Origin: a virus
DNA length: 64,000 nucleotides
IMG/VR virus record: IMGVR_UViG_3300025668_000745
Location: 1-64,000 of that record
Strand: one strand, 5' to 3'
Shown here: piece by piece, positions 1 through 30,900 of the stretch
Position numbering within the stretch: the first letter of the stretch is position 1
Layout: each line of letters begins with the position of its first letter
Position numbers and translations under genes: made by a program
Notes under the pieces: model-generated
What the model was told of the DNA's origin: nothing
Databases searched by the model: none
The model's input: the letters and a program-made list of their open reading frames with translations, nothing else

Positions 1-5
1 TTATG

Positions 6-114
6 AATATCTACGTCGTAGATATTAGTTTTCGCTAACGCTCAAACTAAACACTTCGTTTGTTGATAGAAGTAATTAATAAGATACAAATGCATTATTA
101 CGAATGTAATAATG
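6..114. repeat. Cluster of short inverted repeats (hairpins); possible terminator, origin element or 3' part of the adjacent RNA
   Basis: AATATCTACG (6-15) / CGTAGATATT (17-26) is a perfect 10-bp inverted repeat. TTAGTTT (25-31) / AAACTAA (44-50) encloses TCGCTAACGCTC. CATTATTAC (93-101) / GTAATAATG (106-114) is a third stem. Confidence 0.7.
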
Positions 115-118
115 TTTA

Positions 119-490
119 AGTTTCATGTAGATTGTTTAGTCAGACGGAACCTGTTACGGCCCCGTCGTCTTTTTGGATAACTTCATGTGAGTCCGTCCAG
201 CCGAGACATTGGAAGTAGGTAATTGTTTATACACAAAGTACAATGGGCTCTGACCTTTCCCAACCTACGTCGACATCGCTGTTTCCAGCTACCTCTTGCT
301 TCGTTCCTATTGCTAAAGAGTTTTTATGTACTGTGTTTGTGTTTTTCGACTGCCAACAAAACAATCTATATCAACCAGTGAGCCCAATTTGTTTGGTGGC
401 TTCCTACCTCTGGGTAGTCGATCAATATGTTACGTGTGCTTCTATACGAGAGCTTTTTCCACAGCGGTATTATTAAACTGGCCCGCTAAC
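119..490 (-). ncRNA. Putative large structured non-coding RNA directly downstream of the GIY-YIG gene
   Basis: No credible ORF. The hairpin 143-151/158-166 pairs fully only on the minus strand (two G-U pairs). A GCUG-GAAA-CAGC GNRA hairpin (278-289) lies on the minus strand. Local stems at 404-408/413-417 and 463-467/483-487. Long-range complementarities at 128-137/359-368 (10 bp), 244-250/380-386 and 215-220/263-268. Boundaries are approximate. Confidence 0.55.
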
Positions 491-491
491 C

Positions 492-941
492 TTATGTGTT
501 GGAATGTTTTGCCTGGATGTGTTGTTCTAACAATGCCTGTTTAAGTTTGTCTGACCCGCCTACTCTAACATTAATGATACCGTTATAGTATTCATCAGTT
601 TCAAGTACACGCCTATCAAATTGTTCTCTTGCCTCTATGTAGGACATTTCGCCCCTACCTTTACATAGGTATAATATTTCTCTTGTAAACTTGTCTTCGC
701 CTAATGCTGCTACGTCTGCGTTTAGTCTGTCTGAACTACCATAATAAGTTTTCCAGTCTGACTCTTTATAGCCTCGTCTTTTATTTTTTCTGCCTTTAAG
801 TGGTGGCTTAGTGGTTTTAAATTTTGCAAGTTTCTTGCCTATGTACTTTTGGCCTGTGGTAGTATTAGTAATAAGATAAACAAATCCTTCGTATTGATCT
901 TCAATACATTTAATTTCTTTACCTTGATAAGTCCAGCTCAT
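492..941 (-). CDS. Stand-alone GIY-YIG family endonuclease (149 aa)
   Basis: GFVYLITN...KYIGKK motif pair, downstream YYGSS and a conserved E...YYN. Basic insert KTTKPPLKGRKNKRR. No C-terminal DNA-binding domain. Confidence 0.85.
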   Translation of the reverse strand: MSWTYQGKEIKCIEDQYEGFVYLITNTTTGQKYIGKKLAKFKTTKPPLKGRKNKRRGYKESDWKTYYGSSDRLNADVAALGEDKFTREILYLCKGRGEMSYIEAREQFDRRVLETDEYYNGIINVRVGGSDKLKQALLEQHIQAKHSNT

Positions 942-958
942 ATGGTACTTACCGTTAG

Positions 959-1171
959 CTATTTATTATCGTTGCCTTTTCTGGTAATACGTGTAGTTGT
1001 ATGTTTTTCATGTATTTGATCCATGCGTTCTTTTGCAAGACTACGAATTTCTCTAAGCCATTTTCGTGAGTCTCGATGTGTTCGCACAGAATTTTTTCTT
1101 TCAAACTTTTCGTTTTCTTTAAAATATTCTAAGTATGCTTTTACTAACTTATCGTGTATGCTGTCTTCCAT
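959..1171 (-). CDS. Small basic helical protein, possibly histone H1-like Hc1-type nucleic-acid-binding protein
   Basis: 70 aa, K/R-rich, tightly packed behind gp46. The ENEKFE..NS...R.RK.L..I...AK.R pattern resembles the Hc1 N-terminal helical hairpin (recognised from memory only). Confidence 0.55.
   Translation of the reverse strand: MEDSIHDKLVKAYLEYFKENEKFERKNSVRTHRDSRKWLREIRSLAKERMDQIHEKHTTTRITRKGNDNK
960..966 (-). promoter_or_regulatory. Putative late promoter (ATAAATA) for the GIY-YIG gene
   Basis: Minus-strand ATAAATA 18 nt upstream of the ATG at 941. It is the same motif found before the structural genes and resembles the T4 late consensus TATAAATA. Confidence 0.5.
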
Positions 1172-1172
1172 A

Positions 1173-2945
1173 TTAGCTCAATACTTCGATGTCATTTTCG
1201 TAGCTTGTAAATCCGTTTTCTTTGATGACTTTCATTACAAAATTAACTCTTCCAATTAATTCATCTTTGTGCGAGATAAGATATATATTTTTATCACGCT
1301 CTCTACCAATCTTTTTAAGAACACTTAGCGAGTTTTCAACTCCAGCAGTATCCATGCCACTATCAATAAGTTCGTCAATAAACAACAAATTAATATTTTG
1401 ATATAAACTCTCCCAAACATCGCGGAATGCAAAGCTCATGCCAAGTATAAGTCTGTTACGTTCTCCACGTGATAGATTATCAAAGTCTAAGTCTTGACCA
1501 AGTTGTGTAATTTCAACACTAAGATCATTTTGGAATAATACTTGATGCGGCAATCCTAACTTGTCAAGATAGTATGTAAGTCTATTGTTTAGATATGCTA
1601 AGTTTTGCTCAATAATTTTTTTACGAATAAAACTATCTTTATTTGTTAACAATTTTAATAGGAACTCTTGATGCTCTTTATAATTTGTTAATTCATTAAC
1701 AGAGGTCCAATCAATATCCTGTAGTGCAGTATTAGTCAACTCGTCCACTTGAGTTTGATAAGGGTCAACATCATTTTCTTTTGTTGACAATGCTTGTTTT
1801 AAACTATCAACATTCTGTCTATGGTCATATGCTTCTTTAGCAGTTTCGTAAAAAGTAGTAGGTTTGCCGTTGATGTCACCAATTTCTTTAAGAGCGTCAA
1901 CAACACCTTGTCGTTTAGTGTCAATCTCAGTTGCATATGATATTGCATCTTCAAGTTCTTTTACTTTCTTCGATTCAATCTCTGCTTTTTTGTCTGCATG
2001 AAGCTCTTGTCCGCAAGTATAACAAGTTGCATCTTCAAGATTTGCGATGTCTTTTTGTGCTTTTTCTACACTCTTAGTTGCACGTAATAGTGCTGGCTCC
2101 AATGTGCTTAATTCTTTTTTAAGAGCCAAAATAGAATTGTTATGTTCGTTCCAGTTAGATAATTTTTCATGACTATCTAATTCAGAATCGATATCTAAAT
2201 GTTCTAATTCTTCTATAGATTTAGACAATCTTTCAGTGTCTAATGTCTGTTTTGCACGCCATGCACGTTGGTTCTTCTTCAAACTTTCGATTGTAACTTC
2301 AATTTTTTCATTAGCTGTTTGAATAGCTTCAATTTTTAAAGTTTCTGATGTAATTGCTTCTTTTGTTGTTTTTACTTGTTCTTTTAAGTTTTCGGCCTTC
2401 TCAGAAAGTATAGTAATGCCTAACAGTTGTTCAATGATTGCACGTTGATCGTTCTGCCGCATACTTAAAAACGGTTCAGTGTATGTGTTTAGAGCAACAA
2501 TATGTTTAAACATATCGTGACTCATGTTCAGTAGAACATTAATTGATTCTTGTGTTTTGCGACTGTCGCCTTGTGACTCGTCGACCATCTCTTGTTCTTG
2601 ATCATTGATATAAAACTTGAGTACGTTAGGCGATCTACCACGTTCGATTCGATAATCAACGCCATCTTTTTCAAAATGTAGTGTAACTAACATGCCTTTT
2701 GAGTTAGTTTTGTTAATCAAGTTATTGCGTTTGATGTTTGTAAGTGCTGTACCATACAACGCATACGATAGTGCATTGATGATAGTAGTTTTACCAGTAC
2801 CGTTACGTGATCCTGTGTCGTCACCACCTTGATCTAAGTTCTCACCAAGCACAAGTGTTAGTTGTTCTTTGTTAAAATCTACAGCCTGGGTTTGATTGCC
2901 CACACTCATAAAGTTTTTTACGGTTAAGTCTTTAATTCTTATCAT
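1173..2945 (-). CDS. gp46: SbcC/Rad50-like recombination ATPase (T4 gp46-like)
   Basis: N-terminal KNFMSVG, Walker A NGTGKTT, long coiled coil with zinc-hook CYTCGQ, signature LSRGE, Walker B LFIDE and H-loop ISHK. Confidence 0.95.
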   Translation of the reverse strand: MIRIKDLTVKNFMSVGNQTQAVDFNKEQLTLVLGENLDQGGDDTGSRNGTGKTTIINALSYALYGTALTNIKRNNLINKTNSKGMLVTLHFEKDGVDYRIERGRSPNVLKFYINDQEQEMVDESQGDSRKTQESINVLLNMSHDMFKHIVALNTYTEPFLSMRQNDQRAIIEQLLGITILSEKAENLKEQVKTTKEAITSETLKIEAIQTANEKIEVTIESLKKNQRAWRAKQTLDTERLSKSIEELEHLDIDSELDSHEKLSNWNEHNNSILALKKELSTLEPALLRATKSVEKAQKDIANLEDATCYTCGQELHADKKAEIESKKVKELEDAISYATEIDTKRQGVVDALKEIGDINGKPTTFYETAKEAYDHRQNVDSLKQALSTKENDVDPYQTQVDELTNTALQDIDWTSVNELTNYKEHQEFLLKLLTNKDSFIRKKIIEQNLAYLNNRLTYYLDKLGLPHQVLFQNDLSVEITQLGQDLDFDNLSRGERNRLILGMSFAFRDVWESLYQNINLLFIDELIDSGMDTAGVENSLSVLKKIGRERDKNIYLISHKDELIGRVNFVMKVIKENGFTSYENDIEVLS

Positions 2946-15400: not shown

Positions 15401-15968
15401 AACAACAGTAAAACCTAATCCGCCAAGTAGTGATGAATTATTTTTAAATTATGCTGAAAAAATTAATGCAATTAAAAGCATAAGTGACGAAGTTATTATG
15501 CAGCCGGCAAAGTATAAGGTTTTATTTGGTAATAAGTCTAATACTAATTTACAAGCAACTATAAAAGTTGTAAAAAATCCTGCAATTACTATAAATGATA
15601 ATTTGATAAAGAGTCAAATAATTGATTATATGAATGTTTATTTTGCATTAGACAATTGGGATTTTGGTGATACATTTTATTTCCAAGAAATGGCGACTTA
15701 TATTATGAACAAAATGTCGCCTATAATTGTTAGTATGTTAATTGTACCAAACGACCCGGCACTATCGTTCGGCGGCCTTTTTGAAATAACAAGTGAAGAT
15801 AATGAAATTTTAATAAGCGGAGCAACAGTTGAAAATATTGATATTATATCAAGTAATACAGAATCGCAATTAAGAAGTTTAGGATCACAAGTAATATCTT
15901 ATTCTGAAGCAGGATCCACAAGCGGGTCTTTAGCAGTTAATAATAGTAATAGAGGAAGTAGTTACTAA
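12498..15968 (+). CDS. gp6: Baseplate wedge subunit (gp6-like), 1156 aa
   Basis: DFDSLR...DFNDY.ESS, NARENFLETAERRESILRLA, FSDGIFGKLP and TQNRLITAEDY are gp6/baseplate-J motifs. Confidence 0.9.
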   Translation: MSVTDRQNKLIVAEDWKRIYQSYRNADFQSYDFDSLRRTMINYLRENYPEDFNDYIESSEYLALIDLIAYLGQNLSFRIDLNARENFLETAERRESILRLARLINYNPKRNSAGNGFLKIQSIQTSEDIIDSNNINLNNQNIVWNDSANLDWYEQFIKILNSSLTTSNKFGNPIASDTVSGINSEQYRVAGVSSDVPVFSFSKAINGSNLPFEITSCQIQNGKITEEAPYPGNSLSFVYKDDGKGAASSNNGFFLHFRQGTLQNGNFNISNPSSNQVVNIESTNINDSDVWLYKLDDSGNEIELWNKVDSLTGNNIIYNTLTSGSKNIYNVLTKAQDKINVIFSDGIFGKLPKGNFKIYYRTSANSSYQIVPNEIRNISIKVPYINANGNLHNLTITGSLEYTVTNASTTETNESIKRNAPATYYTQNRLITAEDYNIGPLSTSQDIIKVKSVNRNASGISRYFDLKDSTGKYSNTNVFADDAIIYKQEIVEKTAFNFETKTDIENVLINTIQPIIKENNTRNYYFEKYNEILLTENNVVWTQTTTDTNRDTGYFKDLSDNVYNLGSFTSGNLQYVEPSALVKFSAPTGYHFMTTDNNKLMLGDADHPGAVSYIWTKIINVVNDGTANSTGILDNGDSPVVITDKIPSGAILTAIRQKYTKEFGTDILSKAIDLIFALKTFGLRYDAILRQWKIILNEDLDIINPFSLGKSGDTTKTNQDSSWIVLLETNGISYTITNRKLEYVAESKDQVRFLFEKDNTVFDTKTGQYVSDTVKILSINKQPNSLIPFTKDYTWQIIDVFNNVEGYVDSRKVKVDFFDSDFDNTVDDPDIFNTLVDQTASNLNRFVFQKQYITSENLEDFKYVSQADEGIIIVNNEGQIGPLTNAYPDGQIFYLVESDLFKKYTESASSLSIVSNYKAFVGRDGLKVQYTHSADQTTRIDPSVSNIIDTYVLTKSYDIDFRKYLSGATTVKPNPPSSDELFLNYAEKINAIKSISDEVIMQPAKYKVLFGNKSNTNLQATIKVVKNPAITINDNLIKSQIIDYMNVYFALDNWDFGDTFYFQEMATYIMNKMSPIIVSMLIVPNDPALSFGGLFEITSEDNEILISGATVENIDIISSNTESQLRSLGSQVISYSEAGSTSGSLAVNNSNRGSSY

Positions 15969-18900
15969 TGGCTTATAATGATAACCAAAATGAAAATGAG
16001 TTGCCTACAGGAAACGTTAAAAAAACGTCAAGCCAGTTTCTTCCAAGATATTTTAGAAGTGATTTTAACAAAAAGTTTTTACAATCTACAGTAGATCAAT
16101 TTATTAGTAATGGTAACATTGAAAAAATAAACGATTATGTAGGTAAGCGCAGCGCTCGAAGTGTAATAGAACAAGATACGTTTCTTCCTGATGTTTCAAA
16201 AGAACGTGAAGATTATCAACTTGAACCTGCCTTAGTTAATTTTGACGAAGTTAACAATGTTACCTTTTTCAAAGATTATAACGATTTTCTAAACCAGTTA
16301 AAAATATTTGGCGCTGACACTACTAACCACAATAGATTGAACCAGCAAGAATTTTATAGTTGGGATCCAAAGATTGACTTTGATAAATTTACTAACTTCC
16401 GTGAATACTATTGGTTACCAAATGGTCCTTCGGCTATTACAGTAGTTGGTCAAGAAGAAATTATTGAAAGTACGTATACTGTAAAATTAGGTGACGACCT
16501 TGATAATACACCTTATATATTTGATCCAAACGGATTAACAAGAAACCCTACACTAACTTTGTACAAAGGAAGAACTTATAGATTTGAAGTAGACTGTAAA
16601 GATGCTCCGTTATTCTTTAGAACGTCAAACATTAATGATGACGATTATAATTTTGGTATGGCTGTTAATAATGGTGCTGAAGAAGGCATTATTGAAATTA
16701 ATTTATTAGACACTGCACCTGATACATTATATTATATAAACGGAAATGATCAAAATCAGTCCGGCATAATAAATGTTTTGAAAGCAGAGGACGCATCTTC
16801 TTTAGATGTTGAGTTAGAAATTTTAGGTAAAAAGAATTTTAAACTTTCAAACAACGTTGAAATATCAAACGGAATGAAACTAAACTTTGCTGGAAAAACA
16901 AATCCATCAAAGTACGAAGAGGGTAATTGGTATGTTGAAGGTGTTGGTAACAGCATAGTTCTTGTCTCAGATAAAGATTTAGAAATACCAGCAAAATATT
17001 CAGATGCGACTCAAGTTGAATTTGATAATGTACCGTTTGATAGCATACCTTTTTCTGATCAAGCAACCTTTGCTGGAACTAAAGATTATATTGTTATAAA
17101 CAGATCTTCACCAGAAAAATCGCAATGGAGTAGATATAATAGATGGTATCATAAAGATATAATAGAAACAAGTGCAAAAGTTACTAATACTACAGCAGAA
17201 CTTAATCAAGACAATAGAGCATTTAAGCCTATCATTGAATTTAATTCAGGCTTAAAACTATATAATTATGGTACTCGAAATATTACTAATGTAGATCTTA
17301 TTGATACATTTACAAATGATGTTTTTAGTATTATTGAAGGTCAACAAGGTTATAACATTGACGGTGTTAACTTAGTTGATGGCATGAAAATTATTTTTAA
17401 TGCCGATACAGATACCAGAGTACTTGGAAAAATTTATCAAGTTAAATTTATTAAATTTAAAAATAATAATCAATTAACATTAGTTGAACTCGAAAGTCCA
17501 CAGCCAGTATTAAATGACACAGTATTAGTTCAGCAAGGAACTAATAATTCAGGTACAGTTTATTGGTTTAATGGATCTAAATGGATTAAAGCTCAAGAAA
17601 AGACAGCAGTAAACCAGTGTCCGTTATTTGATCTATTTGACGAAGACGGTAATAGTTTTGCTGACGAAACTGTTTATAATGCAACTTCATTCAAAGGAAA
17701 CAAAATCTTTAGTTATAGTGAAGGCACTGGAACTAACGATGATGATTTAGGATTTCCTCTATCGTATAGAACTATTGAAAATACAGGTGACTTATTATTT
17801 AATTTTAATTTTATTAAAGAAACATACAATTATACAACGTCTAATTTGTTGTTAACTGAGAAAATTTCTTCAAACTCTTATGTAAGAGTGTATGATAGAA
17901 TAGGAAATTATACAACTGAAAATGCTTGGAAAAAGTCTAAAGTTACAAATACACAGCGTATTGTATTACAATATTTTGCTAATATTGACAATCAAAATAA
18001 TTTTGAAATCAATTGTTTTGATACAATTCCATTAGATGTAACTGCACAAGTGTATGTTAACAATGACTTAAAATTTGAAAATACTGACTATAACTTAGTT
18101 AATGAAAATAATAAACTGTATGTAAGATTTTTACAAAATCAATTAGATAAATCGATAACTATTAAAGTTTCTTCTAAACAGGATAAAAATTCTAACGGAA
18201 CTTATGAAATTCCTATAAACTTAGAAAGAAATCCTAAAAACGAAGAACTACCAGAATTTACATTTGGTGAAGTAGCAGATCACGTATTATCAATTGTTGA
18301 AGAGCATCCAAAGTTTTCAGGAATATTTCCAGGAACAGGCAATTTAAGAGATTTACCTGATAATTGTTTATATGGTAAAAAGGTAGTTAGGCACAGTAGT
18401 CCATTTATGTTATCTGGATATCATATCTTAAATAAAGATGCAAACATTATAAAATCTTTAAGATATGCAAAAAGAGAATATTCTAAATTTAAAAGATTAC
18501 TTTTGCAAACAGCAATGACTTTAGGATATGAAGGTAGTGCTGGCAACCATCTTAATATAATATTAGGCGAAATTACTAAAAATAAAACTAACACAATGCC
18601 TTTCTATTTTAGTGATATGATTGCATATAAAGGATTTGTTACTGTTGAACATCTTGTAAAGGATAGTAGAATATTAAATTATCCAATGAATCAACAATTT
18701 AGTTTAACTAACTTAACTGACAAATCTGTATTAGTTTATAAAAATAATATATTACTTACATATGGTAAAGATTACACATTTAATCAAGACTTTGTAAAAT
18801 TAACTGAAGTGTCACGTAATGACACTATCAAGATACAAGAATATGAAACTACCAATGGTAGTTTTGTACCACCTACTCCTACTAAATTAGGTCTTTATCC

Positions 18901-21900
18901 GGCAACCGAACCTTTAATATTTGTAGACAATACTTATCAAACTCCTACAAAGATGATACAGGGGCACGACGGCAGCCTTATAAGGGCATATGATGATTTT
19001 AGAGATGACATAATACTTGAATTTGAAACAAGAATATACAATAATTTAAAAGTTTCGTATAATACAAGATTTTTTGATTATGATAAATTATATGTTAGTG
19101 CAGAAAGAAAAGACGGTCTTAGTTTAGAGTCACTAAACACATCGTTGTCAATTGATTTTGGTCAATGGTTAACATTTACTGGCGGAGTTGATTACCAAAA
19201 GAATTCTTATCTAAATTTAGATAATGCATTTACATATAACTATAACAATTTTGCATTATTCAATAATGACCCAGCTCCTGGGTTCTGGCGTGGAGTGTTT
19301 AATTATGTTTATGATACTGATAGGCCGCACACACATCCTTGGGAAATGTTAGGATTTAGTGTTAAACCTAACTGGTGGGAAGAACAGTATGGTCCGGCAC
19401 CGTATACTGACGGTAATATGGTTCTATGGAGCGATATTGCACAAGGTAAAATTAAAAAACCAGGCGTACCTGTAACTACTATTAAAACAAAAATAAGACC
19501 TTGGCTATTAACACATATTCCTGTTACTGAATTTGGAACTCTCAAAACACCATTAGAAGCAGGCTTAATAAAACAATACAGTAATGCTTTGGCAACAGGA
19601 GATTTTAGATTTGGCGATATGTCTCCTGTCGAAAATGCTTGGCGTAAAAGTAGTGAGTACCCGTTTGCATTACTTGCAGCAACAATTGTAAATTATCCGC
19701 ACTTAGTGTTTGCAACAGGATTTGACAAGTCCAGACAAGTAGTATCTTCACAGGATCAAATAGTTTATAATCCTACAAATAATCAGATTACAATGCAAGA
19801 TATTGTATTTCCAAACATTGCAACAGATACATCAAAGTCGAACACTATAGGGTTAATAAATTACATACAAAATTATTTAACAAGTAAAAGTCAAATTCCA
19901 ATAAGTGTTTATCAAAATGAATTAACAAATATAGATATACGTATTTGTAGTAAGTTAGGCGGATTTACAAATAAAGATAATTTTAAATTAATACTTGATA
20001 GTAGAACACCATTAAATGAAGGTAATGTGTTTGTTCCTTCAGAAAATTATGACATATTTTTAAATACAAGTTCTCCTATAGATCAAGTAATTTATAGCGG
20101 TGTTATAATTGAAAAACTTGAGAATGGTTATTCAGTAAAAGGCTATGACAAAGAAAAAAGTTTATTTTATATTAATGAGCATTTAGAATCAGCTAACGAT
20201 TCTACTTTTGTTACCGGCGGCGTGTCTGATACATATAGTGATTGGCGAGCAACTACTTGGGGCAAAGGACAAATAGTTTTATACAATGGCAATTATTATA
20301 GAGCATTAGATAATATTGAATTAGGTGAGTTTAATCCAGACGAATGGCAAAAATTATTAAGTCTTCCTGTAGTTGGAGGAGTTAGGGCTACTGTAAGAAA
20401 GCGTTTTACAAATAATGTAGTTACTGTGCCCTATGGAACAGTATACGAGACTGTACAAGACGTAGTTGATTTTCTATTAAGTTACGAAAAATATTTACAG
20501 ACTTCTGGGTTTGAATTTAATACCTTTAACAAAGAATTAGAATTAGTTGCTAATTGGTTAACAAGTGCAAAAGAATTTATGTTTTGGACAACACAAAACT
20601 GGGAATTAGGAAGTGTAATTACTTTATCGCCGTCGGCGGACAGATTGGTTTATAATAATAAAAATGCTGTTATAGATAATATATTTGATCCGTTTTACGG
20701 AAATGAAATATTTAAAGCAGACGGTACAAAATTAGACAGAAGCACACTTTCTACATACAGACAAAATAGTGAATTTGTCATTGAAACAAAAACTAATGAC
20801 GGATTGTATTTCTGTAAATTGTATCCAATACAAAAAGAACATGTATTAGTATTAGACAATCGAACAAAATTTAAAGATTATATTTACGATCCAGCAATGG
20901 GCTATAGACAAGATAGAGTTAAAATATTAGGTTATAGAACAAGTGACTGGAATGGCGGTTTTGATATACCTGGTTTTGTTTACGATAATATTAAAGTTAC
21001 ATCTTGGGAAAGTTACAAAGATTATAAAATTGGCGACACAATTAAATTTAAAGAGTACTATTATGTTGCAGATAAAAATATAACAGGTACAGAAACGTTT
21101 GACGCAAGTGTTTGGGTACAATTATCCGAAGCACCAACACCTAAACTAAAACCTAATTGGGATTATCGATCAGCACAATTTGCAGACTTTTATGATCTGG
21201 ATACTGATAATTTTGATACTGAACAACAAAAGTTAGCACAGCATTTGATAGGCTATCAGCCAAGAAAGTATCTTGAAAATATTATTAATGATGAAGTTTC
21301 TCAGTATAAATTTTATCAAGGTATGATAAGAGAAAAGGGTACTAAGAATAGTTTAACAAAATTATTTGATAGTTTAGGAAAATCTGATAAAGATAGTCTA
21401 AAGTTTTACGAAGAATGGGCAGTACGTACAGGTCAATACGGAGCAGTTGATAATTTTAGAGAAGTAGAATACTTAATTGACGAGCAAAAATATATTTTAC
21501 AACCACAACCTGTAAAATTAACTAATTTAATTAGTGCGTCAGACACATCTTTAGTATACAAAATACCAGAAGCTGATGTTTATACTAAACCGTTAGACTA
21601 TAATCATAGCAATTCTTTTGTTAGTAAAACTGATTACTCACAATTTTTAAAAGATGCAGGTTATGTTGCTGAGGAAGATGTCGCTTTTGTAATAAAAGAA
21701 ATAGACGAAATTTTAAATTTAGATTTTTCACAAGTAACAAGATCATCATATATTTGGGTATCTAATAATAATGGTGACTGGGACATACTAAAGCCAACGA
21801 AAACAGAACTTGTAATAGAAAGTATTACAAGTGAAGCTCGAGAAATAACTTTTGATACTAATATACAAGTTACTGATATAAAAGTAAATGATTATATTGG

Positions 21901-24900
21901 CGTTTATGGTATTGTAGAAGATGCAGGTCTTATTAATGACGATAAAATAGGAAGATGTTTTAAAGTTAAGAAAATACAAGGAAGTGCAATTACAGTAGAT
22001 AGTATTGCGCAGGCTCCTGAATCAATTACTACAGGAAGTGCATTTATATACAAATTTGTGTCATATAGAACAAAAGATATAGAAACATTTAACAATAATC
22101 TTAATTCAAATTATCTAACAACTAATGATAAAGTTTGGATCGACAGTGTTGACAACAGTAAGTGGAATGTAGTTTCTAATACTAATCCGTACTATCAACA
22201 TCAAGAAATAACTACTGAGCTTACATTTAAAGATGCTTGGGTAGCAGATACTCGATATAAGAGAAATGACATTGTGTTGTTTAGCGGAGATCGTTATGTT
22301 GCTATTAACGAAGTTACCAGTGCAGTTGATCCAAGTGCGGATACAACAAACTGGCAATTAACAGAGTTTGTTGCAGACGGATTTGGTAGTAAAGTAGTAA
22401 GTGGTAAAAAGAATCAAAATGTATTTGTACTTGCGCAAGATTCGTACAACGGATTAGGCACTATTTTCTATTATCAAAGAAACAGCGAAACTTTAAATTT
22501 AGCATATATGAATAAGTTTGAGTCATTAGAAGAATATGCTACTAACTTTAAATATGATAACATTGCAGTCAGCGACGACGAAGAAATCGTTGTTGTGTCG
22601 TCAAGCCAAGCATCAAATGTAAAAACAAATTATAAAGGTCTGTTTAATGATGCTGCACCTGGCGGAACTTATGTAGAAGGCGATATTGTAGAATATCAAG
22701 ATACATTGTGGAAGTTTAATGCAGATTATATAGACGATGCAAGTACATTGTTTACTGAAGTTCAAGATGTAGTACCAGTCAACAACATACCTGTAGAAAG
22801 TTTAGGATCTACAAGTTACGGAACTTATAACGAACAGGGTGTAATTTTTGTTTATAAAAAATCCGGACCAAGATCATACGCTTTAGTTAATAGTACAATT
22901 AGTAGACGTCCGCAACTTTCTGAATTTTTTGGTAAAGAAGTAGTTATAACACAAAAAGACGGAACATACGAATTATTTGTAAGTGCTCCAGGTACAAATA
23001 CAAATAGAATATACTTTTTAAAATATGACGGCGAAAACAATATTTTAAGTTATAATGAAGACAGAAGATACAAAGGTCAATTTGACGAAAATAAAAGTTA
23101 TAGAAAAGGTGACATTGTTCAATTACTTGTAGAAGGCCAGTCAGCACAACAAGGGCAGCAACTATTTGTAGCAAACAATACATTACCTGCACAGACATTT
23201 TCATCTGATAATTGGAAATTACAAGACCCAGATATAAACTACTTAGAGTATGTTCCTAATACGTTATTTCCTGTTTTAAATGACGATAGTACTGTTCTAT
23301 CTGATGAAGAAAAAGAAAACTTCGGAGATTCATTTGCTGTATCAAGTAACGGAGAAGTATTAGCAGTAGGTATATCAAATTATGCAAAATACGATAACGA
23401 AGCAACTTATTTAACTGGTGACATTGTAAGTAATAATGGAAAAACTTACGAAGCAGTTTCGTCTGTGCCTCCTGTAGTTGAACGAATAATATATTTAGAT
23501 AGTGATGGAATTAGCACAAAAGTTGATATTGCTCCAGGAAGTATTCTTACTCAAGCAAATACTAACGCAACTGGCGTTGTAAAAAACTTAGTTGTTGATA
23601 GTAATAGAATTTTGCTTACTGAAGTTTCTGGAGTATTTGATACTCAATCCGGTAATGAAGTTACAGTTACAACAACAGACAGTTCTCAATTAGAAGATAC
23701 CCCATCTGGTAGATTTATCGGAGAGGTTGTAAATGTTCCTAATGCAGACACTACAAATACAAGTGCTTGGAGAGAAATTGCCGCAGAAAAAGTTGCAATT
23801 TACAGAAAAAATAATACAAGATTTGCATTAGCACAAGTAATTAATGGCACAGTTGAAAATCAAGGCTTTGGCTCAAAGATTGAAATATCAGATGACGGAA
23901 ATACTTTATTGATAGGTGCACCGTTAGCTGATGTAAACAATTACGACGATAGCGGAAAGATTTATGTTTACAAATGGCAGTTACAAAACTGGACATTAAC
24001 ACAGACAATTGAAGCACCGCAAGATTTAAGAAATCAAAAGTTTGGTGATAAGTTTTCGTTTAATGAAGACACTCTTTTTGTAATAACAGAAGGTACTTAT
24101 AAGTTTGATAACGAAGTTACAGACATAACACTTGATGGTAACTTTACAAGATTTGGAGAAAAAAGCAATAACTCAACTAATCTACATGTTTATGATAATT
24201 TACAAGGCGGCTTACTTTATGCTGGTAAAATTATTTTAGATAAAGTTACTAACTTTGTTGATTATAGTGTATATGCAAAAAATAATCATGTTTATATTGG
24301 ACTTCCGTATGCAGGACCTGTTAATGATTATGGTAAAGTATTTGATATCCGACGCCAGGTAAACACAACAAGCTGGAAAGTAGATAAACAACAAACAGAT
24401 ATTATAGATACTACAAAATTAAAAACAGTATTTGCATACAATAAAGATACTAAAAAACTAATAAGTGATATAGATTATATTGATGTATTGCAAGGCAAAA
24501 TTGCTGCTCCGTTAGAACAGGAAATTAACTTTAAAACACATTATGATCCTGCAATTTATGATATAGGAAATGATAGCGTTGTTGTAGATAGCAATCAAAG
24601 TTGGGCTGAAAGATACATAGGAACAGTTTGGTGGAACTTATCAACAAGTAAATTTTATAATCCTTATCAAGGCGATGTATTATATAAAACAAATTATTGG
24701 AACAAAATATTTCCAGGTTATAACGTAGAAGTATGTGAATGGGTCGAAAGTAATTATATACCGAGTCAGTGGGATAGTTTATCCGGAACATCTGAAGGAT
24801 TTGCGCAAGGTATAACAGGTGATACAAAATACGGTGATGATGTTTATGCTACTGGAAGAAAATATGATCCAGAGGCACAAGCATTTACAACAAAATATTA

Positions 24901-27900
24901 TTATTGGGTTGCTCAGAAGAAAACATTACCTAACAATAATTCATATAGAAAACTAACAGCGCAAGAAATTGCGTTAATGATCGAAGATCCTGCAGGACAA
25001 GGATATCGCTTTGTAGCATTATTAGACAATGACGAATTTGCAATGTTTAATCTTAAAGGACTAATTAGTGGTAAAACTACAGCACTTAATTTTAGTTACT
25101 ATGTAAAAGACAATATTAATACAAATATTCATACACAGTATAAAATATTTACAGACGGGCTTGCAACAAGTGTGCCATCAAACGACTTACAAGAAAAATG
25201 GTTTGATAGTTTAATTGGGTATGACAAGTTTTTTAGAGATGTGCCTAACAAAGATCTATCAGAAAAGCAAAAATACGGAACATTAAACACACCTCGACAG
25301 TCGATGTTTAAGAATAAATTTGAAGCTCGTAAACAATTTTTTGAAAGAGTAAATTATGAATTAAACAAACGGATAATATTAGATGATTACGATTTATCTA
25401 ATTTACTGTTAAGCGATATCGAGCCTGACTTTAAAGAAAATAAGTATGATGTAGCTATTGATAATAATTTGCAATTAGAAACTATTAGTTTAGATAATAA
25501 AACTACAGCTGAGATATCAATAGAATTAGTTGATGGTAAAATTAATAAAGTAAAAATTACAAATCCTGGTATTGGGTATGTAACAGCACCAAGTGTAACT
25601 ATCGGAGGTGACGGACAACAGGCTGTTTTAGAAACTGAAATTACAGATGGTAAAGTAACTAATGTTATAATCAAAAACAAAGGCAAAAACTATAATACTA
25701 TTAGTGCAGTAGTTAGACCGTATACAGTTTTAATTCGAGCAGATAATACAGTAGAAAACAAATGGTCGTTGTATAGTTATGATTATGTTGAATTTACGTG
25801 GAAAAGAATAACAGGACAGCAATATGATAATACATTATACTGGTCTTATAAAGATTGGTATGCAGCAACCGTAAGTGAATTAACATCTATTGATTACGTT
25901 GTAGAAAATAATTATGAATTAGAATTACTAAGTGATAAAATTGGTGATATTATCAAGATTCAAACTATCGGAACTGGCGGCTGGCTGTTATTAAGAAAGG
26001 TTGATAATACTAATACTGACACAAGTATTGATTATGAAACTATAGGTAGACAAAACGGCACAATAGAATTTAATAAAAGTTTATGGGACTATAATCAGCA
26101 ACAAATTGGTTTTGACTTAGAAAGTTTTGACACTCAGTTATATGATAACGAACCTGTTAGAGAATTAAGAAATATTTTAAATGCTTTGGCAAATAATATA
26201 TTTGTAGATAATTTACGTCTTGAATGGAATCAATTATTCTTAGCAGGTATTCGTTATGTATTTACAGAACAGCGATATGTAGACTGGGCGTTTAAAACAA
26301 GTTTTGTAAAAGCAGAACATAGACTTGGAGAATTTGAGCAAAAAATTACATTCCAAAATGATAATTTATCCAGCTACGAAGATTATGTACGTGAAGTAAA
26401 ACCTTATAAAACTAAAATTAGAGAATATTTAAGTACATATGAAAAGGTAACTAATACAAATACATTAGTAACAGACTTTGATCTTATGCCGTTGTTTAAT
26501 CCTATTAGTGGTAAAATTGAACCTTTAAATATTAAATTACAACAAGGACAGATATTTGTACAAGAAGGAAAAGCCGACAGCGTTAATAGGAACTGGGCAA
26601 ATAATGTAGGGTTTCAAGTTGAAGAAATCAACGTTTATGATGGCGGAAGAGGATATACTTACACACCTAAAGTTACAATAGAAAGCGTTTCGGGTACAGG
26701 CGCCGAGGCAAGAGCAATAATGCGTAACGGCGAAATTCTTAAAATTGAAGTACTAAAATCTGGCACAGGATATTTGACACAGCCACAAGTAGTTATTGAA
26801 CAACCGACTGGTGAAGATGCAATTAATCCTGTAATTGTTGCACGTATTGGAACAGGACTTCCTCGAGCATTTACAAATAAAATTAAATTTGATAGAATAT
26901 CAGCATTGTCAGATTACGATAGTATATCTGTTGTTGATGAAACATTTACAGGAGTTTCAAATTCACAAATTTATAATCTTGAAAATTCTATGGATTTAAA
27001 TAAAGCAAATGTTTTAGTAAAAATTGACGGTATTGAATTGTTATCAAGTGAATATACTTTTGGCAATACTACAGAAGTTGGTACTACAACATTAAGAGAT
27101 ACTTATGATCTTACAACTGGCAACAATTATTATAATAACTTTAATAGCTTAATAACAAGCGGTACAGATGTTGAACATGGATTTATTAACTTAACAAATA
27201 CTCCTGCACAAGATAGTGTAATAACAGTTTCATATAAGAGATCAGTTGATTCGTTAAATGTAGCAGATAGAATTAGTAATTACTATAAGCCGGCTGTTGG
27301 AATGTATGGCAATGAGTTAACTCAATTAATGGAAGGTGTTGACTACGGAGGCGTAGAAGTTACGTCATTTAACTTTGAAACAGAAAATATTGTAGGATGG
27401 GACCAAGGTGCATGGGATACAGTTGCATGGTCAACTTATACTGAAACTGGCGATGAATTTACATTTTTAAGTGACGGTATTACAACATCGTTTACACTAC
27501 CGGAAGGATCAACACTTGAACAGGATGTAGAATATAATGTTTATATTAATAGTGTGAGAATTGACGCACCTGATTTTGTAGCAGGCACAGATGAAATTCC
27601 TGGCACAGATGAAATTCCTGGTAGTCCGGCAGATGCAGAATACAACAACGGAGCAATTAGTAATGTTACTGGTGCCGGTAGTGATTTCTTCAAACGTGAA
27701 GTTACAACCAACGGCGTAAGAATTATGGGTGCTGGCACAGTAGGTGGGCAAACAGCAGTTCCAGATGCGTGGTTAGAAAAGGTAGCACGTATGTTTGAAT
27801 TGTTTTTAGATCCAACCGGCGCAGGTATTAACGAAGCATTCCAAAGAAACTTAATTAAAACATTAAGTGGTGATGCAGGAACTTGGCACGAAGGATTACC

Positions 27901-30900
27901 GACACTACAACGAGTGGCAAGAGGCGCAGGAGCAGATTATACTCCAAACTTCCTAACTGACGCAGGTGTTATTAGTTGGAACTTAACTCCATTGTTTGAT
28001 ACTCACGTTGCTAACGATATGGTTTGGTACTTGAACTCAACCGGTGACGGATACGGCGTTGGTGAGATCGACGCACAAGAAGTTATTGAACACGTATTCC
28101 ACACACTACATATGCACGGTCTAACAGACGATATAAAACTGTATTCATACATTAGTGCAGATTGGGCAACTGGTCCATTATATGCAGCAATGGAAGAAGC
28201 ATTTGACGCAGGCAAGTGGGATCCATCAGGTTACCAAGCAAATCCAGATGATTGGAAAACAGATGCAGATGCATTTGAAGTGGCAGCAAAAGAATATATG
28301 TTCTTGTTAAACTTTGCTATGTTTGATTACACTGGGCTATGGGACGGCGACAGTCTTGCTCCTGAGTGGGCAGATGATGTACGTACCCCTGCACAAATCC
28401 AAACAACACTTCCAGTAAGTTATGCGTTCTTTAATACATACATTGCTCCGGTTATTAGTAAGCCTTCATTAGCAACTATTAATAGCATATTTGGAGACGG
28501 CAATACACCAGCACAAGACGATCCAAGTTTATCAGGAGCATCAGGTTATGTTGTTGATGCGCTTGTAGGAGGAACTGACGCAGTTGCAGCTATTCCTGGT
28601 GTACCCGGAACATCGGCTACTAATGAAGATGCATTTATGCTTACGATTACAGGTAACGGTACTAATGTATTTGAATTCCCAGATGCAGCAGAATTCCAAG
28701 CATATGTGAGTGATAAGCCTGATGCAGAAATTACTTTACGAAAAGAAACATTTGACGGAGGAACACTACCGGATGAAACATCGTATGACACTTTATTAAC
28801 AGGTGGTGATTTAGCATATGCTTCAGCAACTGGTGTTGCATCAGAAGATATTGTAATTGACGGTGACGGATTTGTTACAATAGCTACAAGTGCAGGACCT
28901 GAAGAAGTTGTTCCTGGACATGTTGCAGATACTCTTGATATAAGAGTTTACAATAGGCCTGATGATGGCGGCAATGTAATTACTACAAGGACATATACAT
29001 ATACTGATACTTCTACTTTTGATATTGGGTTAAATCCGTCATCAACTGAAGGATTCATTGTAAAAATTAATAAACTTATTGTTGATAGTACAAATTATAC
29101 TCTTGACTTTGCACAACGTCAAGTTACTATTACAATGCCACTTTCGGCTAACGACGAAGTAACAATATATTCAATAAGCGGCGGCGCAAGTAATATATTA
29201 GATGTTGATAATTTTATTGCAGATGGTAGTACAAGTGAATATATTACGAATGTATTATATAGAGAAGATGCAAATGCATTAGTAACAGTAAATGGTACTG
29301 AAGTTATATTTGAAATATTTAAAACTGACAGCAGTTATGGCAGTGAAGCTAATTTAATTGGTATTAGATTTGGTGAAGCACCAGTTGCAAATGATTATAT
29401 TTATTTTGCAATAGTAGCAGGAACAACTATTCCACACTCACAAGTTAAGATACAAAACTTTACTGGCGACGGATCATCTACACAATTTTTGTTAGAACAA
29501 TTACCGTATACACTAACTACACCAGTTTACACAAATACTATTATTAATGTAGGCGATGTATTCTTAAATCAAGGATATAATAAAAAGTTTACAGTCAACA
29601 ATGCATTAAACCAATATCAACTTGATGTATGGCAAATACCTACAGGAAGTTTTGATATACAATCTGCAAAAGTGTTTGTAAATAATACATTGTTAGCTTA
29701 TGAAACTGAGTTTTTATGGGACGAGACGACTAATATATTCTCACTTGTGGCAGGTACTGCCCAAGATGGCGATGATTTAAAAATCTTTATTTTAGGTGAA
29801 GAAGAATTTAGTATAGACACTACAAATAATCTAACAACATTAGTATTAGGAAGTGCAGCAGCACTTGATACAAATATTGTAGTGTATTCATTAGGCGACG
29901 ATAGAACTCAATTATTTGAAAGATTCCATTACGATATTGCAATTGATCAAAGTGTATCAACTGAATCGGCTCAATTTAAATTATATCAAAGACTAAAGTC
30001 AGGAAAGATCAAATTAAGAAATAAAGCAGCAAGTCCTGATTTTGTTTGGGTATTTGTTAATGGCATATTACAAACACCAAATCTTGATTATGTATTATCT
30101 GAAGAAATGAACGAAGTAATATATAAAGAATCATTACAATTAAATGACAAAATAGAAGTATTAGAATTTACTACTGGAGGAATTGGCCGTAGATTTGGTT
30201 ATAGAGTATTCAAAGATGTCACAAATAAAACTATTTACAAACGTCTTACAGATGACAGAATATATAAAGTAGCAAAAGATTTTAATTTTTATGATAAAAC
30301 ACTTGAGCTTAATACAACTGCTGGTTTACCTACACCGAGTAAAGATGAGAACATTCCTGGAGTTGTGTTTATTGAAGGCGAAAGAATAGAATACTTTATT
30401 AAGTTAGGCAACACTTTACGTCAATTACGTAGAGGAACACGAGGTACTGGTGTAGGAGAATTATACACAGCTGATACACCAGTTACGGACCAGAGTTTCA
30501 TCCATACTATTCCATATAATGATAATATAGAAGTAGTGAATGAAACAGGAGATGCTACATCGTATGAATATAACTTGCCATATGTACCTAATGTAGTATC
30601 TAATACATTGAACACATCAGCGTGGAATAGAAGTACTATACCATTAACATTTGGACAGTGTAACGAAATAGAAGTATTTGTAGGAGGCAAAAGGTTGCAT
30701 AAAGAGCCATATACAGTTTATGATGTAGTTACAAATACAAATATTACTTATGAAGCAGAATTTTCTGTTAATGGGTATAACTATGGAACACAAGGTAACC
30801 CAATGGGAAGAGTTAGATTAACTAACCCTGCAGGCGACAATACAAATGTAAAAATAGTTAGAAAAATAGGCAAAACTTGGATCAAAGATGGCGAAAAACT

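What the first reader, a model, noticed from the sequence alone, without database searches (positions are those of the whole stretch)
119..941. Minimal GIY-YIG nuclease followed immediately by a ~370-490 nt structured RNA: candidate nuclease-RNA (possibly RNA-guided) system
Seen in sequence: this is the only long non-coding stretch in an otherwise gene-packed 64 kb, and it starts within a few nt of the GIY-YIG stop codon. It has strand-specific RNA signatures on the gene's strand: GACGGGGCC-GUAACA-GGUUCCGUC with two G-U pairs (143-166) and a GAAA tetraloop hairpin (278-289). It also has several long-range, mutually crossing complementarities (128-137/359-368, 244-250/380-386, 215-220/263-268, 211-215/400-404, 237-242/327-332), which suggest a pseudoknotted fold. 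The 149-aa protein is just the catalytic domain plus a very basic insert (KTTKPPLKGRKNKRR). Established: homing GIY-YIG enzymes such as I-TevI carry a separate C-terminal DNA-binding domain, and compact nucleases with an adjacent ncRNA (IscB/HEARO, TnpB) act as RNPs. Inference: the RNA is co-transcribed from the ATAAATA promoter at 960-966 and may bind or guide the nuclease, or it may be an independent large ornate phage RNA.
Basis: partly seen in the sequence, partly recalled or inferred. Interest (0 to 1): 0.88.

Follow-up and report, generated by a model that had tools for sequence, protein, structure and literature searches.

The report
Twin-box structured RNA beside phage nuclease
The gene-free stretch behind a small DNA-cutting enzyme gene of this uncultured marine T4-like phage encodes a real, knotted RNA of about 400 bases that is in no RNA catalogue, carries one 7-letter word twice, and looks like an RNA gene of its own and not the enzyme's guide.

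Summary
Window 491 to about 93 (minus strand) encodes a structured non-coding RNA. On 81 relatives, 92.8% of cells pair, against 33-40% with slid partners. 49 of 85 pairs show compensatory changes, and two covarying helices cross to form a pseudoknot. No Rfam 15 family matches the window or 26 relatives, including Polynucleobacter-1. Two single-stranded 7-mers, ACAUGAA at 188-182 and 128-122, stay identical while changing between lineages. No complementary partner was found.

The 149-aa ORF is an intact SegE-type GIY-YIG domain under purifying selection. Its linkage to the RNA is complete only inside one T4-like clade, always behind gp46. The RNA also occurs without the nuclease in another phage type. 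Nuclease homologues occur without the RNA in 3 of 3 isolates. A guide role is therefore not supported, and the function is unknown.

The scan found this RNA family many times before on other DNA. Earlier notes link it to Polynucleobacter-1; I could not reproduce that link.

The parts
492..941 (-). 149-aa stand-alone GIY-YIG nuclease gene (SegE-type catalytic domain only)
   Evidence: Pfam PF19835 at E 4.2e-35 covers residues 3-123 and the whole 123-position profile. phrog_447 matches at E 1.8e-39 over its full length. Median dN/dS is 0.12 over 1813 pairs of 61 intact ORFs. Y22, Y33, G35, R55, E88 and N120 are invariant in a 4-sequence alignment.
93..500 (-). Structured non-coding RNA of the 'twin-box' family. 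The 5' edge is uncertain: conservation starts about 10-30 nt inside the ORF's 3' end. The 3' edge is taken as the hairpin 114-93.
   Evidence: Alignment A1 of 81 sequences. Pair counts: 92.8% paired against 33-40% slid; 49 of 85 pairs with changes on both sides; 0 of 500 shuffles as high. The 5' word ACA(R)CACAUAAGG is kept in the loci that lack the nuclease. No Rfam match.
463..487 (-). 5' hairpin 487-483/467-463 with a 15-nt loop
   Evidence: 98.5% paired; 4 of 5 pairs with compensatory changes (helix 1)
434..462 (-). Helix 462-460/436-434 enclosing hairpin 453-448/442-438
   Evidence: GUG/CAC changes to GAG/CUC in 10 sequences; the inner hairpin covaries (helices 2-4)
368..428 (-). Long helix 428-420/376-368 enclosing a swappable peripheral domain (hairpin 417-404 and more)
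   Evidence: 94% paired; 6 of 9 pairs compensatory. At least three alternative inner domains are visible among relatives (helices 5-6).
348..366 (-). Hairpin 366-362/352-348 with a conserved 9-nt loop
   Evidence: 96.8% paired; 4 of 5 pairs compensatory (helix 8)
237..332 (-). Long-range helix 332-327/242-237, one strand pair of the pseudoknot
   Evidence: 99.8% paired; 3 of 6 pairs compensatory (helix 9)
293..320 (-). Stem 320-316/297-293 plus 313-312/299-298, capped by the invariant 12-nt loop AAUAGGAACGAA
   Evidence: 96.9% paired; 5 of 7 pairs compensatory (helix 10). Loop columns are invariant in A1.
278..289 (-). GAAA-capped hairpin; site of a variable insert of up to about 100 nt in relatives
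   Evidence: 4 of 4 pairs compensatory (helix 11); inserts seen
215..268 (-). Helix 268-263/220-215, which crosses 332-327/242-237 (pseudoknot) and encloses the invariant word GGGAAAGGUCAGAGCCCAUUG (261-241)
   Evidence: 99.4% paired; 2 of 6 pairs compensatory (helix 12). Invariant columns are listed.
182..188 (-). Box 1: ACAUGAA, single-stranded
   Evidence: Identical to box 2 in 96 of 107 sequences and changes with it
143..166 (-). Conserved 9-bp hairpin between the boxes. The following UGACU (142-138) can pair with the loop GGUCA (255-251).
   Evidence: 99% paired (helix 14). The candidate pseudoknot is 99.5% paired but invariant, so unproven (helix 13).
122..128 (-). Box 2: ACAUGAA
93..114 (-). 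AU-rich hairpin 114-106/101-93 followed by a U-rich tail; probable 3' end (inferred)
   Evidence: 9 of 9 pairs compensatory, 80.3% paired (helix 15). The consensus terminator scan did not call it.
6..47 (-). Conserved word GUUUGAGCGUUAGCGAAAAC (47-28) and a covarying hairpin (26-18/14-6). In relatives this lies just before a TATAAAT-like word and the next gene. It may be a 3' extension of the RNA or the leader of the next gene.
   Evidence: The last blocks of the alignment show at least 6 different stem sequences. A related word occurs in the nuclease-less loci.
959..1171 (-). 70-aa ORF between gp46 and the nuclease gene; conserved in relatives, no family match
1173..2945 (-). gp46 (Rad50-like recombination nuclease subunit); fixed upstream neighbour
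   Evidence: Pfam AAA_23 and SMC_N; present upstream in 155 of 155 loci

Best explanation
Window 491 to about 93 (minus strand) is a gene for a roughly 400-nt pseudoknotted non-coding RNA. It belongs to a family common in uncultured marine phages and absent from Rfam. It is an RNA gene in its own right. In this T4-like clade it sits, by descent, directly behind a conserved stand-alone GIY-YIG nuclease gene downstream of gp46. It is probably transcribed with that gene and ends at the hairpin 114-93 (inferred).

Shown: an invariant, knotted core carries peripheral domains that are swapped between lineages.

Shown: two single-stranded 7-nt boxes flank a conserved hairpin and are kept identical to each other while their sequence drifts.

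Inferred mechanism: the folded core displays the two boxes so that one complementary strand is read at both. That strand would be either a trans partner gripped twice, or a strand made on or paired to one box and handed to the other. The nuclease is a neighbour, not a required partner.
For: Structure. 92.8% of 6472 cells pair, against 33-40% for partners slid by 1-3 columns. 49 of 85 pairs and 617 cells show changes on both sides, against 64-134 cells when slid. 0 of 500 shuffles reach the observed values. Two covarying helices cross.

Strand. 597 G-U cells against 110 A-C cells.

Spread. One copy per record in 5 of 5 long relatives.

Not catalogued. No Rfam match for the window, for 26 relatives, or for the own genome with RF01718.

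Independence from the nuclease. The RNA has other upstream genes, and a terminase gene about 1.2 kb downstream, in L107, L115, L201-203, L208, L218, L224 and L225. Nuclease homologues of 48-71% identity have no RNA downstream in 3 of 3 isolates examined. The basic segment is conserved in those RNA-less homologues.

Boxes. They are identical in 96 of 107 sequences. Ten matched box types were seen among 100 unique sequences, plus a 10-nt pair in L107. The ACGTGAA group differs from the consensus only at the two boxes.

RNA libraries. Contigs of 4 marine metatranscriptome runs from 4 studies cover window 209-900.
Against: Within the T4-like clade the linkage to the nuclease gene is complete. 57 of 57 protein-found loci with enough downstream sequence hold the RNA core. 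101 of the 103 RNA-found loci that can be judged hold the nuclease gene; 15 more have under 300 nt upstream. The conserved 5' word of the RNA overlaps the last codons of the ORF. RNA-library contigs bridge the border. The ORF is under purifying selection. All of this would also fit a functional pair.

No partner for the boxes was found, so the mechanism is inference only. Transcription is not shown: the RNA-run data are contigs, were found by the stretch itself, and may hold DNA. None of them covers window 1-208. The RNA's ends were not mapped. Single-sequence folding energy is ordinary. The core pseudoknots beyond the two covarying helices are invariant and so unproven.
Confidence: 0.6

Rival explanations
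1. Nuclease-RNA partnership. The RNA binds the minimal GIY-YIG protein and supplies the missing DNA-binding or targeting function, perhaps with the boxes as short guides.
For: The protein is the catalytic domain alone. Linkage is complete in this clade and the RNA's 5' word overlaps the ORF's end. RNA-library contigs bridge the ORF/RNA border. The boxes are variable, single-stranded words.
Against: The RNA occurs without any GIY-YIG gene in another phage type. Homologues of the protein, with the same basic segment, have no RNA in 3 of 3 isolates. The clade-wide linkage sits at one fixed locus behind gp46 in 155 of 155 loci, so it is one event. No complement of the boxes lies within 2.5 kb, and the box word is not enriched in the genome. 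A library search found no paper on an RNA-guided GIY-YIG enzyme (listing).
Confidence: 0.07
2. Template or primer RNA. The two identical boxes let a nascent complementary strand jump from one box to the other, as in DRT2's ACA-1/ACA-2 and telomerase-like repeat synthesis. Alternatively the RNA primes DNA synthesis as an origin transcript.
For: The only constraint seen on the boxes is identity, not a fixed sequence or an internal complement. Mechanisms that re-anneal one strand at a second site predict exactly this. In DRT2, breaking the homology between the two ACA words abolished defence (passages of 10.1101/2024.05.08.593200).
Against: No reverse transcriptase domain in the own record or in 5 longer relatives (0 of 6 records, all incomplete). 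The box-to-box unit is 51-67 nt with no preference for multiples of three. A stop-free concatemer frame is no commoner than in shuffles: 22 of 94 against a mean of 22.0. With one added base the count is 45 of 94 against 33.4, but the rows are related. No arrays of more than one unit were seen. No junction reads were seen, but that part had no cover.
Confidence: 0.07
3. Self-processing or processed RNA. The conserved knotted core is a ribozyme or a processing signal, and the two boxes are the two cut or join sites that release or circularise the 60-nt hairpin piece.
For: An invariant multi-pseudoknot core with variable periphery is typical of catalytic RNAs. One RNA-library contig ends at the start of box 1, and none covers 1-208. 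This is weak, because contig ends are unreliable.
Against: No match to any ribozyme family of Rfam. No internal guide complementary to the boxes. Nothing shows cleavage.
Confidence: 0.1
4. Cis-acting part of an mRNA: a structured 3' UTR that stabilises or regulates the nuclease message, or a leader that controls the variable gene downstream.
For: It lies directly after the stop codon on the same strand. A covarying hairpin and a late-promoter-like word precede the next gene in relatives.
Against: About 400 nt with an invariant knotted core is far more than known UTR elements need. The same RNA lies behind unrelated genes in the other phage type, and the downstream genes differ between relatives.
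Confidence: 0.1
5. Not an RNA. It is a decayed C-terminal DNA-binding domain of a Seg-type homing endonuclease, or a small protein gene.
For: Seg-type enzymes usually carry a C-terminal domain that is missing here (recalled). ORFs of 45-77 aa can be drawn on both strands.
Against: Stops in all frames. The small ORFs shift frame between relatives. Gaps are of any length and changes are compensatory in stems. All 61 ORFs examined end at the same 149 codons under purifying selection.
Confidence: 0.01

Closest known systems
Polynucleobacter-1 RNA motif (Rfam RF01718; Weinberg et al. 2010, PMC2864571)
   Same: An orphan structured RNA motif from aquatic sequence. I saw only its table row, which says 'Burkholderiales, fresh water/estuary'. 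Earlier notes of this scan say that the first third of freshwater relatives of this RNA matches the model.
   Different: RF01718 does not match the window. There was no hit at E up to 10 in a 196-nt search, a 1300-nt search or the whole own record. None of 26 relatives matched. The model has 141 positions; this RNA is about 400 nt, and its twin boxes lie outside any such first third. I could not fetch a bridging freshwater member, so the link is untested here.
GOLLD and ROOL (large ornate non-coding RNAs often carried by phages)
   Same: Large, multi-helix, pseudoknotted, phage-borne, function unknown. The comparison is recalled; I saw only the abstract of PMC12286853 in the listing.
   Different: No sequence or model match. 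This RNA is smaller (about 400 nt). Identity-covarying twin boxes are not a described feature of those RNAs (recalled).
OMEGA systems (IscB with HEARO/omega RNA; TnpB with reRNA)
   Same: A compact nuclease gene with a long structured RNA encoded next to it.
   Different: Those nucleases are RuvC/HNH proteins and their RNAs end in a variable guide (recalled). Here the protein is a GIY-YIG domain. The RNA and the protein each occur without the other. No guide-like match to flanking DNA was found.
Free-standing Seg-type GIY-YIG homing endonucleases of T4-like phages (SegE family, PF19835; phrog_447)
   Same: The ORF is a full match to the SegE GIY-YIG domain and to phrog_447.
   Different: There is no C-terminal DNA-binding domain. 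The gene sits at a fixed locus in 155 of 155 loci with dN/dS 0.12, which is not the sporadic, decaying pattern of a selfish homing gene.
DRT2 non-coding RNA (ACA-1/ACA-2 template jumping)
   Same: A pseudoknotted RNA in which two identical short words flank a stem-loop region, and their identity is what matters (passages of 10.1101/2024.05.08.593200).
   Different: No reverse transcriptase was found. The unit length is not conserved, and there is no clear never-ending frame. This RNA is phage-encoded, not part of a host defence locus.

Membership tests
Any Rfam 15 family (GOLLD, ROOL, HEARO, group I/II introns, RNase P, tmRNA and others) | Covariance-model match at or near the gathering score | tested here: not met
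   Window 1-1300 gave only Ysr35 at 17.8 bits against a gathering score of 428. Window 330-525 gave two hits under 10 bits. 10 relatives at E up to 1 gave none on the RNA. 16 relatives at gathering score gave none. ARAGORN found no tRNA or tmRNA.
Polynucleobacter-1 (RF01718) | Match to the 141-position model (gathering score 37 bits) | tested here: not met
   No match at E up to 10 in the own 84.6-kb record, in 196-nt and 1300-nt searches, or in 26 relatives. Earlier notes report matches in freshwater relatives; I did not reproduce them.
RNA-guided nuclease systems of the OMEGA/TnpB/IscB kind | RNA and nuclease co-occur across independent lineages | tested here: not met
   The RNA lacks the nuclease in L107, the L115 group and 4 metagenome loci. 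The nuclease lacks the RNA in 3 of 3 isolates.
RNA-guided nuclease systems of the OMEGA/TnpB/IscB kind | A variable guide segment complementary to a target next to the element | tested here: inconclusive
   The boxes are variable, but no complement lies within 2.5 kb or in the held loci. Targets elsewhere or in other genomes could not be searched.
RNA-guided nuclease systems of the OMEGA/TnpB/IscB kind | RNA-dependent cleavage | not testable with these tools
   Needs biochemistry.
GIY-YIG nuclease, SegE-type domain (PF19835 / phrog_447) | Profile match over the whole domain with the catalytic residues kept | tested here: met
   E 4.2e-35 over profile positions 1-123 of 123. phrog_447 at E 1.8e-39. 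Y22, Y33, G35, R55, E88 and N120 are invariant in A2. Their catalytic roles are recalled from I-TevI.
Seg-type homing endonuclease (mobile gene) | C-terminal DNA-binding domain | tested here: not met
   149 aa, about 25 residues beyond the domain, with no second Pfam match. No solved relative by sequence.
Seg-type homing endonuclease (mobile gene) | Sporadic presence or variable insertion sites | tested here: not met
   gp46 lies upstream in 155 of 155 loci. dN/dS is 0.12. In Melnitz a 71% homologue sits at another locus, so movement over longer times is possible.
DRT2/telomerase-like template RNA | Identical short words flanking the template | tested here: met
   Boxes are identical in 96 of 107 sequences and change together.
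DRT2/telomerase-like template RNA | A cognate reverse transcriptase | tested here: not met
   PF00078 is absent from the own record and from 5 relatives of 115-236 kb. All records are incomplete (24-66%).
DRT2/telomerase-like template RNA | Concatemer with a stop-free frame | tested here: inconclusive
   22 of 94 against a shuffle mean of 22.0. With one added base, 45 of 94 against 33.4 (sd 2.6), but the rows are related.

The most novel reading that the evidence does not exclude
The two boxes are under a pure identity constraint because a complementary strand is passed from one to the other. On this reading the RNA is a phage-encoded template or jumping platform that a polymerase copies round and round, in a DRT2- or telomerase-like way but with an unknown enzyme. 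Alternatively it is a bivalent adaptor that holds two copies of one nucleic-acid partner. Either would be a new way for a phage RNA to work.
Probability: 0.08. Interest if true: 0.9.

Novelty: new variant of a known kind. Interest (0 to 1): 0.62.

Why it matters
Large structured RNAs with invariant knotted cores are rare, and several of them have turned out to be ribozymes or molecular machines. Rfam has no model that finds it.

It also shows an unusual evolutionary signal. Two short words stay identical, not complementary, while they drift. That points to a mechanism based on re-pairing or double capture.

The result also removes a tempting but unsupported idea, an RNA-guided GIY-YIG nuclease. 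It gives concrete tests instead: mutate one box against both, map the ends, and look for bound partners.

Tried and rejected
Decayed protein domain or small ORFs: rejected.

Internal duplication of the RNA: the best self-alignment scores 22, against a shuffle mean of 28.9.

Internal partner for the boxes: no alignment column pairs with the box in more than 24 of 78 sequences. No exact complement lies within 2.5 kb or in L107, L115, L202 or L203. The box word is not enriched in the own genome: 13 occurrences against 20.0 +/- 9.0 for permuted words.

Anticodon-loop or start-codon readings of the box: considered from the variant list and dropped. Position 2 (C) would face a purine 37 that ANN-reading tRNAs do not have as G (recalled). 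AGG and AGA variants are not start codons. No tRNA gene lies in the 84.6-kb record.

The nuclease gene's own start region as box target: UUCAUG occurs before some relatives' ATG but not in the window or in most loci (listing).

Alternative or tertiary pairings (491-487/142-138, 404-400/215-211, 368-359/137-128, 307-303/150-146): 89% paired but no covariation; shuffles do as well.

Sigma-70 promoters: 0 found in 1-1300, against 4.0 expected. The one terminator-like site is on the plus strand at 156-168 and is the weaker reading of the 166-143 hairpin.

Cellular genomes: one scan of 185,579 species genomes with the core word gave one chance hit in coding DNA. Metagenome scan: 19 stretches, of which 5 are real members of types already seen and 14 are chance coding hits.

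Isolated phages: blastn of window 1-1200 against 50,697 records matched only the ORF in 4 Melnitz records.

RNA runs: Logan contigs only, so no ends, strand or level can be read. There was no cover over window 1-208 and no joints at the boxes, which shows nothing either way.

Papers: searches found no description of this RNA. Fremin et al. 2023 (PMC10690425; I saw passages) predicted 8,495 short (29-151 nt) candidate RNAs from IMG/VR intergenic regions. Pieces of this RNA may be among them, but the supplements are closed, so I could not check.

My own slips. Window coordinates printed by my scripts are 5 too high; they were corrected from then on. One search used one bracket type for two crossing helices and mispaired them; one search is the valid count.
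Full report
WHERE IT LIES. The window is the first 64 kb of an 84,643-bp IMG/VR virus record that CheckV rates 24% complete, so window position 1 is a contig end. The genes at the left end run on the minus strand. They are gp47 (3952-2942), gp46 (2945-1173, AAA_23/SMC_N), a 70-aa ORF (1171-959) and a 149-aa ORF (941-492). Below 492 every minus-strand frame holds stops. With ORFs of 100 aa or more, 1-491 is the longest uncovered stretch of the window: 491 nt, the next being 297 nt. G+C is 0.42-0.46 over 101-300, against about 0.28-0.39 around it.

THE PROTEIN. The ORF matches Pfam SegE_GIY-YIG (PF19835) at E 4.2e-35 over the entire 123-position profile. It matches phrog_447 over its full length at E 1.8e-39. 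PHROGs labels that family 'NAD synthetase', and the same label sits on several phage records under the tblastn match, but the profile is a GIY-YIG domain. The protein is 149 aa and has no second domain. No solved structure matches it by sequence.

Among 61 intact 149-codon ORFs, median dN/dS is 0.12 and the maximum is 0.32, over 1813 of 1830 pairs with dS above 0.1. This is a working gene, not a decaying selfish one. The basic stretch KTTKPPLKGRKNKRR is conserved in homologues from Melnitz and phiN3, so it is a family feature and not an insert.

THE RNA IS REAL. Single-sequence folding gives no signal: z -0.49 on the minus strand, +0.35 on the plus strand. Comparison with relatives does.

In the best 80 loci the roughly 490 nt after the stop codon align at about 70-91% identity, while the genes beyond them differ.

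I aligned 81 sequences that are under 93% identical to each other (A1) and counted a structure of 85 pairs. 92.8% of 6472 cells pair, against 32.9-40.5% when the 3' partners are slid by 1-3 columns. 49 pairs and 617 cells show changes on both sides, against 21-28 pairs and 64-134 cells when slid. 0 of 500 shuffles reach any of the five observed measures.

Thirteen helices carry compensatory changes. Two of them cross each other, 332-327/242-237 (99.8% paired, 3 pairs compensatory) and 268-263/220-215 (99.4%, 2 pairs), so the pseudoknot is supported by covariation. G-U cells outnumber A-C cells 597 to 110, so the structure belongs to the minus strand, the strand of the genes.

The core words are invariant in all 81 rows, including the most distant ones. 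They are GGGAAAGGUCAGAGCCCAUUG at 261-241, the 12-nt loop AAUAGGAACGAA, ACCUACUUCC and GGUUCCGUCUGAC. By contrast, the domain inside helix 428-420/376-368 and the GAAA hairpin 289-278 are swapped or expanded between lineages.

These are 255-251/142-138, 386-380/250-244, 404-400/215-211, 368-359/137-128, 491-487/142-138 and 307-303/150-146.

Conservation begins some 10-30 nt inside the ORF's 3' end, at the word ACA(R)CACAUAAGG, which is also kept in loci without the nuclease. A covarying AU-rich hairpin at 114-93 with a U-rich tail is the likely 3' end (inferred). A conserved word (47-28) and another covarying hairpin (26-6) follow it, and the contig then ends.

NOT IN THE CATALOGUE. Rfam 15 gives nothing credible for the window. 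It gives nothing for 10 relatives at E up to 1 or for 16 more at gathering score. ARAGORN finds no tRNA or tmRNA.

Earlier notes of this scan name Polynucleobacter-1 (RF01718) as the closest family, on the strength of freshwater relatives. RF01718 does not match the own record at E up to 10, nor any locus I tested. Here, then, the link is a lead and not a finding. In Weinberg et al. 2010 I saw only the table row for that motif.

THE TWIN BOXES. ACAUGAA stands at 188-182 and again at 128-122, on either side of the conserved hairpin 166-143. In 96 of 107 sequences the two 7-mers are identical.

Among 100 unique sequences the matched types, with their counts, are:
- ACATGAA: 72
- ACATAAT: 9
- ACATGAT: 5
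- ACGTGAA: 4
- ACAGGAA: 2
- ACATGAG: 2
- GTATGAA: 1
- ACATAAA: 1
- ACAGAAA: 1

Two rows are mismatched by one letter. L107 was misaligned in that table; it carries a 10-nt word twice, 60 nt apart. The ACGTGAA group differs from the family consensus only at the two boxes.

No column of the RNA can pair with the box in more than 24 of 78 sequences. No complement lies within 2.5 kb. The word is not enriched in the genome.

Identity without a complement argues for one of two things. Either one outside partner is read at both sites and has co-evolved. Or, more simply, the mechanism needs only that the two sites be alike, as when a strand paired to one site re-pairs at the other. DRT2's ACA-1/ACA-2 words are a documented case of the second kind (passages).

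The template-jump idea did not gain support here. No reverse transcriptase domain was found in 6 incomplete records. Unit lengths of 51-67 nt show no bias towards multiples of three. Stop-free concatemer frames occur at the shuffle rate. With one added base the observed count rises above the shuffles, but related rows make that excess unreliable.

IS IT TIED TO THE NUCLEASE? Inside the clade, yes. 57 of 57 protein-found loci with at least 330 nt downstream hold the RNA core. Of 118 RNA-found loci, 101 hold the nuclease gene upstream, 2 with a full 1200 nt upstream do not, and 15 have under 300 nt upstream and cannot be judged.

All 155 loci with 1.5 kb or more upstream also have gp46 there, and each of 5 long relatives has one copy. 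The linkage is therefore one inherited arrangement. It does not amount to repeated independent association.

Outside the clade the two part company. In L107 and the L115 group the RNA follows unrelated ORFs with no Pfam or PHROG family. Four metagenome loci repeat these two types. In these loci the RNA lies about 1.2 kb before a gene that I read as a terminase large subunit from its N-terminal Walker-A-like motif; that reading was not run against a profile. These RNAs keep the core, the hairpin and the twin boxes.

Conversely, the 71%-identical homologue in Methylophilales phage Melnitz sits behind ribonucleotide reductase and has no RNA after it. The 48% homologues in phiN3 and S-SRM01 are followed by the next gene after 28 and 87 nt.

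EXPRESSION. Four marine metatranscriptome runs from four studies hold contigs over window 209-900. One is a 132-nt contig with no differences (329-460). Two cross the ORF/RNA border (442-645 and 431-686). These are assembled contigs from runs chosen because they hold the stretch, and they may include DNA. They show presence in RNA libraries and are compatible with co-transcription, nothing more.

No sigma-70-like promoter is found in 1-1300. Three relatives (L072, L075, L078) carry an insert with a TTGACA-17-TATACT word about 60 nt before the RNA, which suggests the RNA can have its own promoter.

VERDICT. The 'guide for the nuclease' reading is not supported. The 'independent ornate phage RNA' reading is supported. 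The function is unknown.

My best mechanistic guess is that the knotted core presents two identical single-stranded words to one complementary strand. The scan met this family many times before on other genomes: 31 findings by words and look-alikes in 136 windows. My score does not depend on that.

Noticed in passing
window 15968-30964: A single 4998-aa ORF on the plus strand, very large even for a giant T4-like phage. It was also noted by first readers.
   Followed up: no
L004, L006, L008, L010, L013 and others; corresponds to window about 345-355: 11 of 80 related contigs end 100-149 nt after the nuclease stop codon. This is where alternative versions of the RNA's variable parts begin, so it is probably an assembly break caused by population micro-diversity.
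   Followed up: partly
L072, L075, L078 (about 90-nt insert between ORF and RNA): The insert carries a near-consensus sigma-70-type promoter word (TTGACA, 17 nt, TATACT) about 60 nt before the RNA's conserved 5' word.
   Followed up: no
window 6-47 and the same place in relatives: A conserved word GUUUGAGCGUUAGCGAAAAC and a strongly covarying hairpin lie just before a TATAAAT-like word and the next, variable gene. A related word follows the RNA in the nuclease-less phage type.
   Followed up: partly
window 945-958 and relatives: A word GGTAAGTA (or ATATATA) lies 5-12 nt before the nuclease ATG in most of 67 loci. It may be the ribosome site or a phage promoter word.
   Followed up: no
phage records under hits H9-H44: Homologues of this GIY-YIG protein are widely annotated as 'NAD synthetase' in phage records and in phrog_447. 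This looks like a propagated misnomer.
   Followed up: partly
L203 13058-13255 (also L115): In the nuclease-less phage type, a 65-aa ORF with a WGIPWPPPKGWRKELL word reads through the RNA's conserved 5' word. It has no family match.
   Followed up: no
records G001-G005: CheckV completeness of 31-66% for contigs of 115-236 kb implies genomes of roughly 350 kb for this T4-like clade.
   Followed up: no
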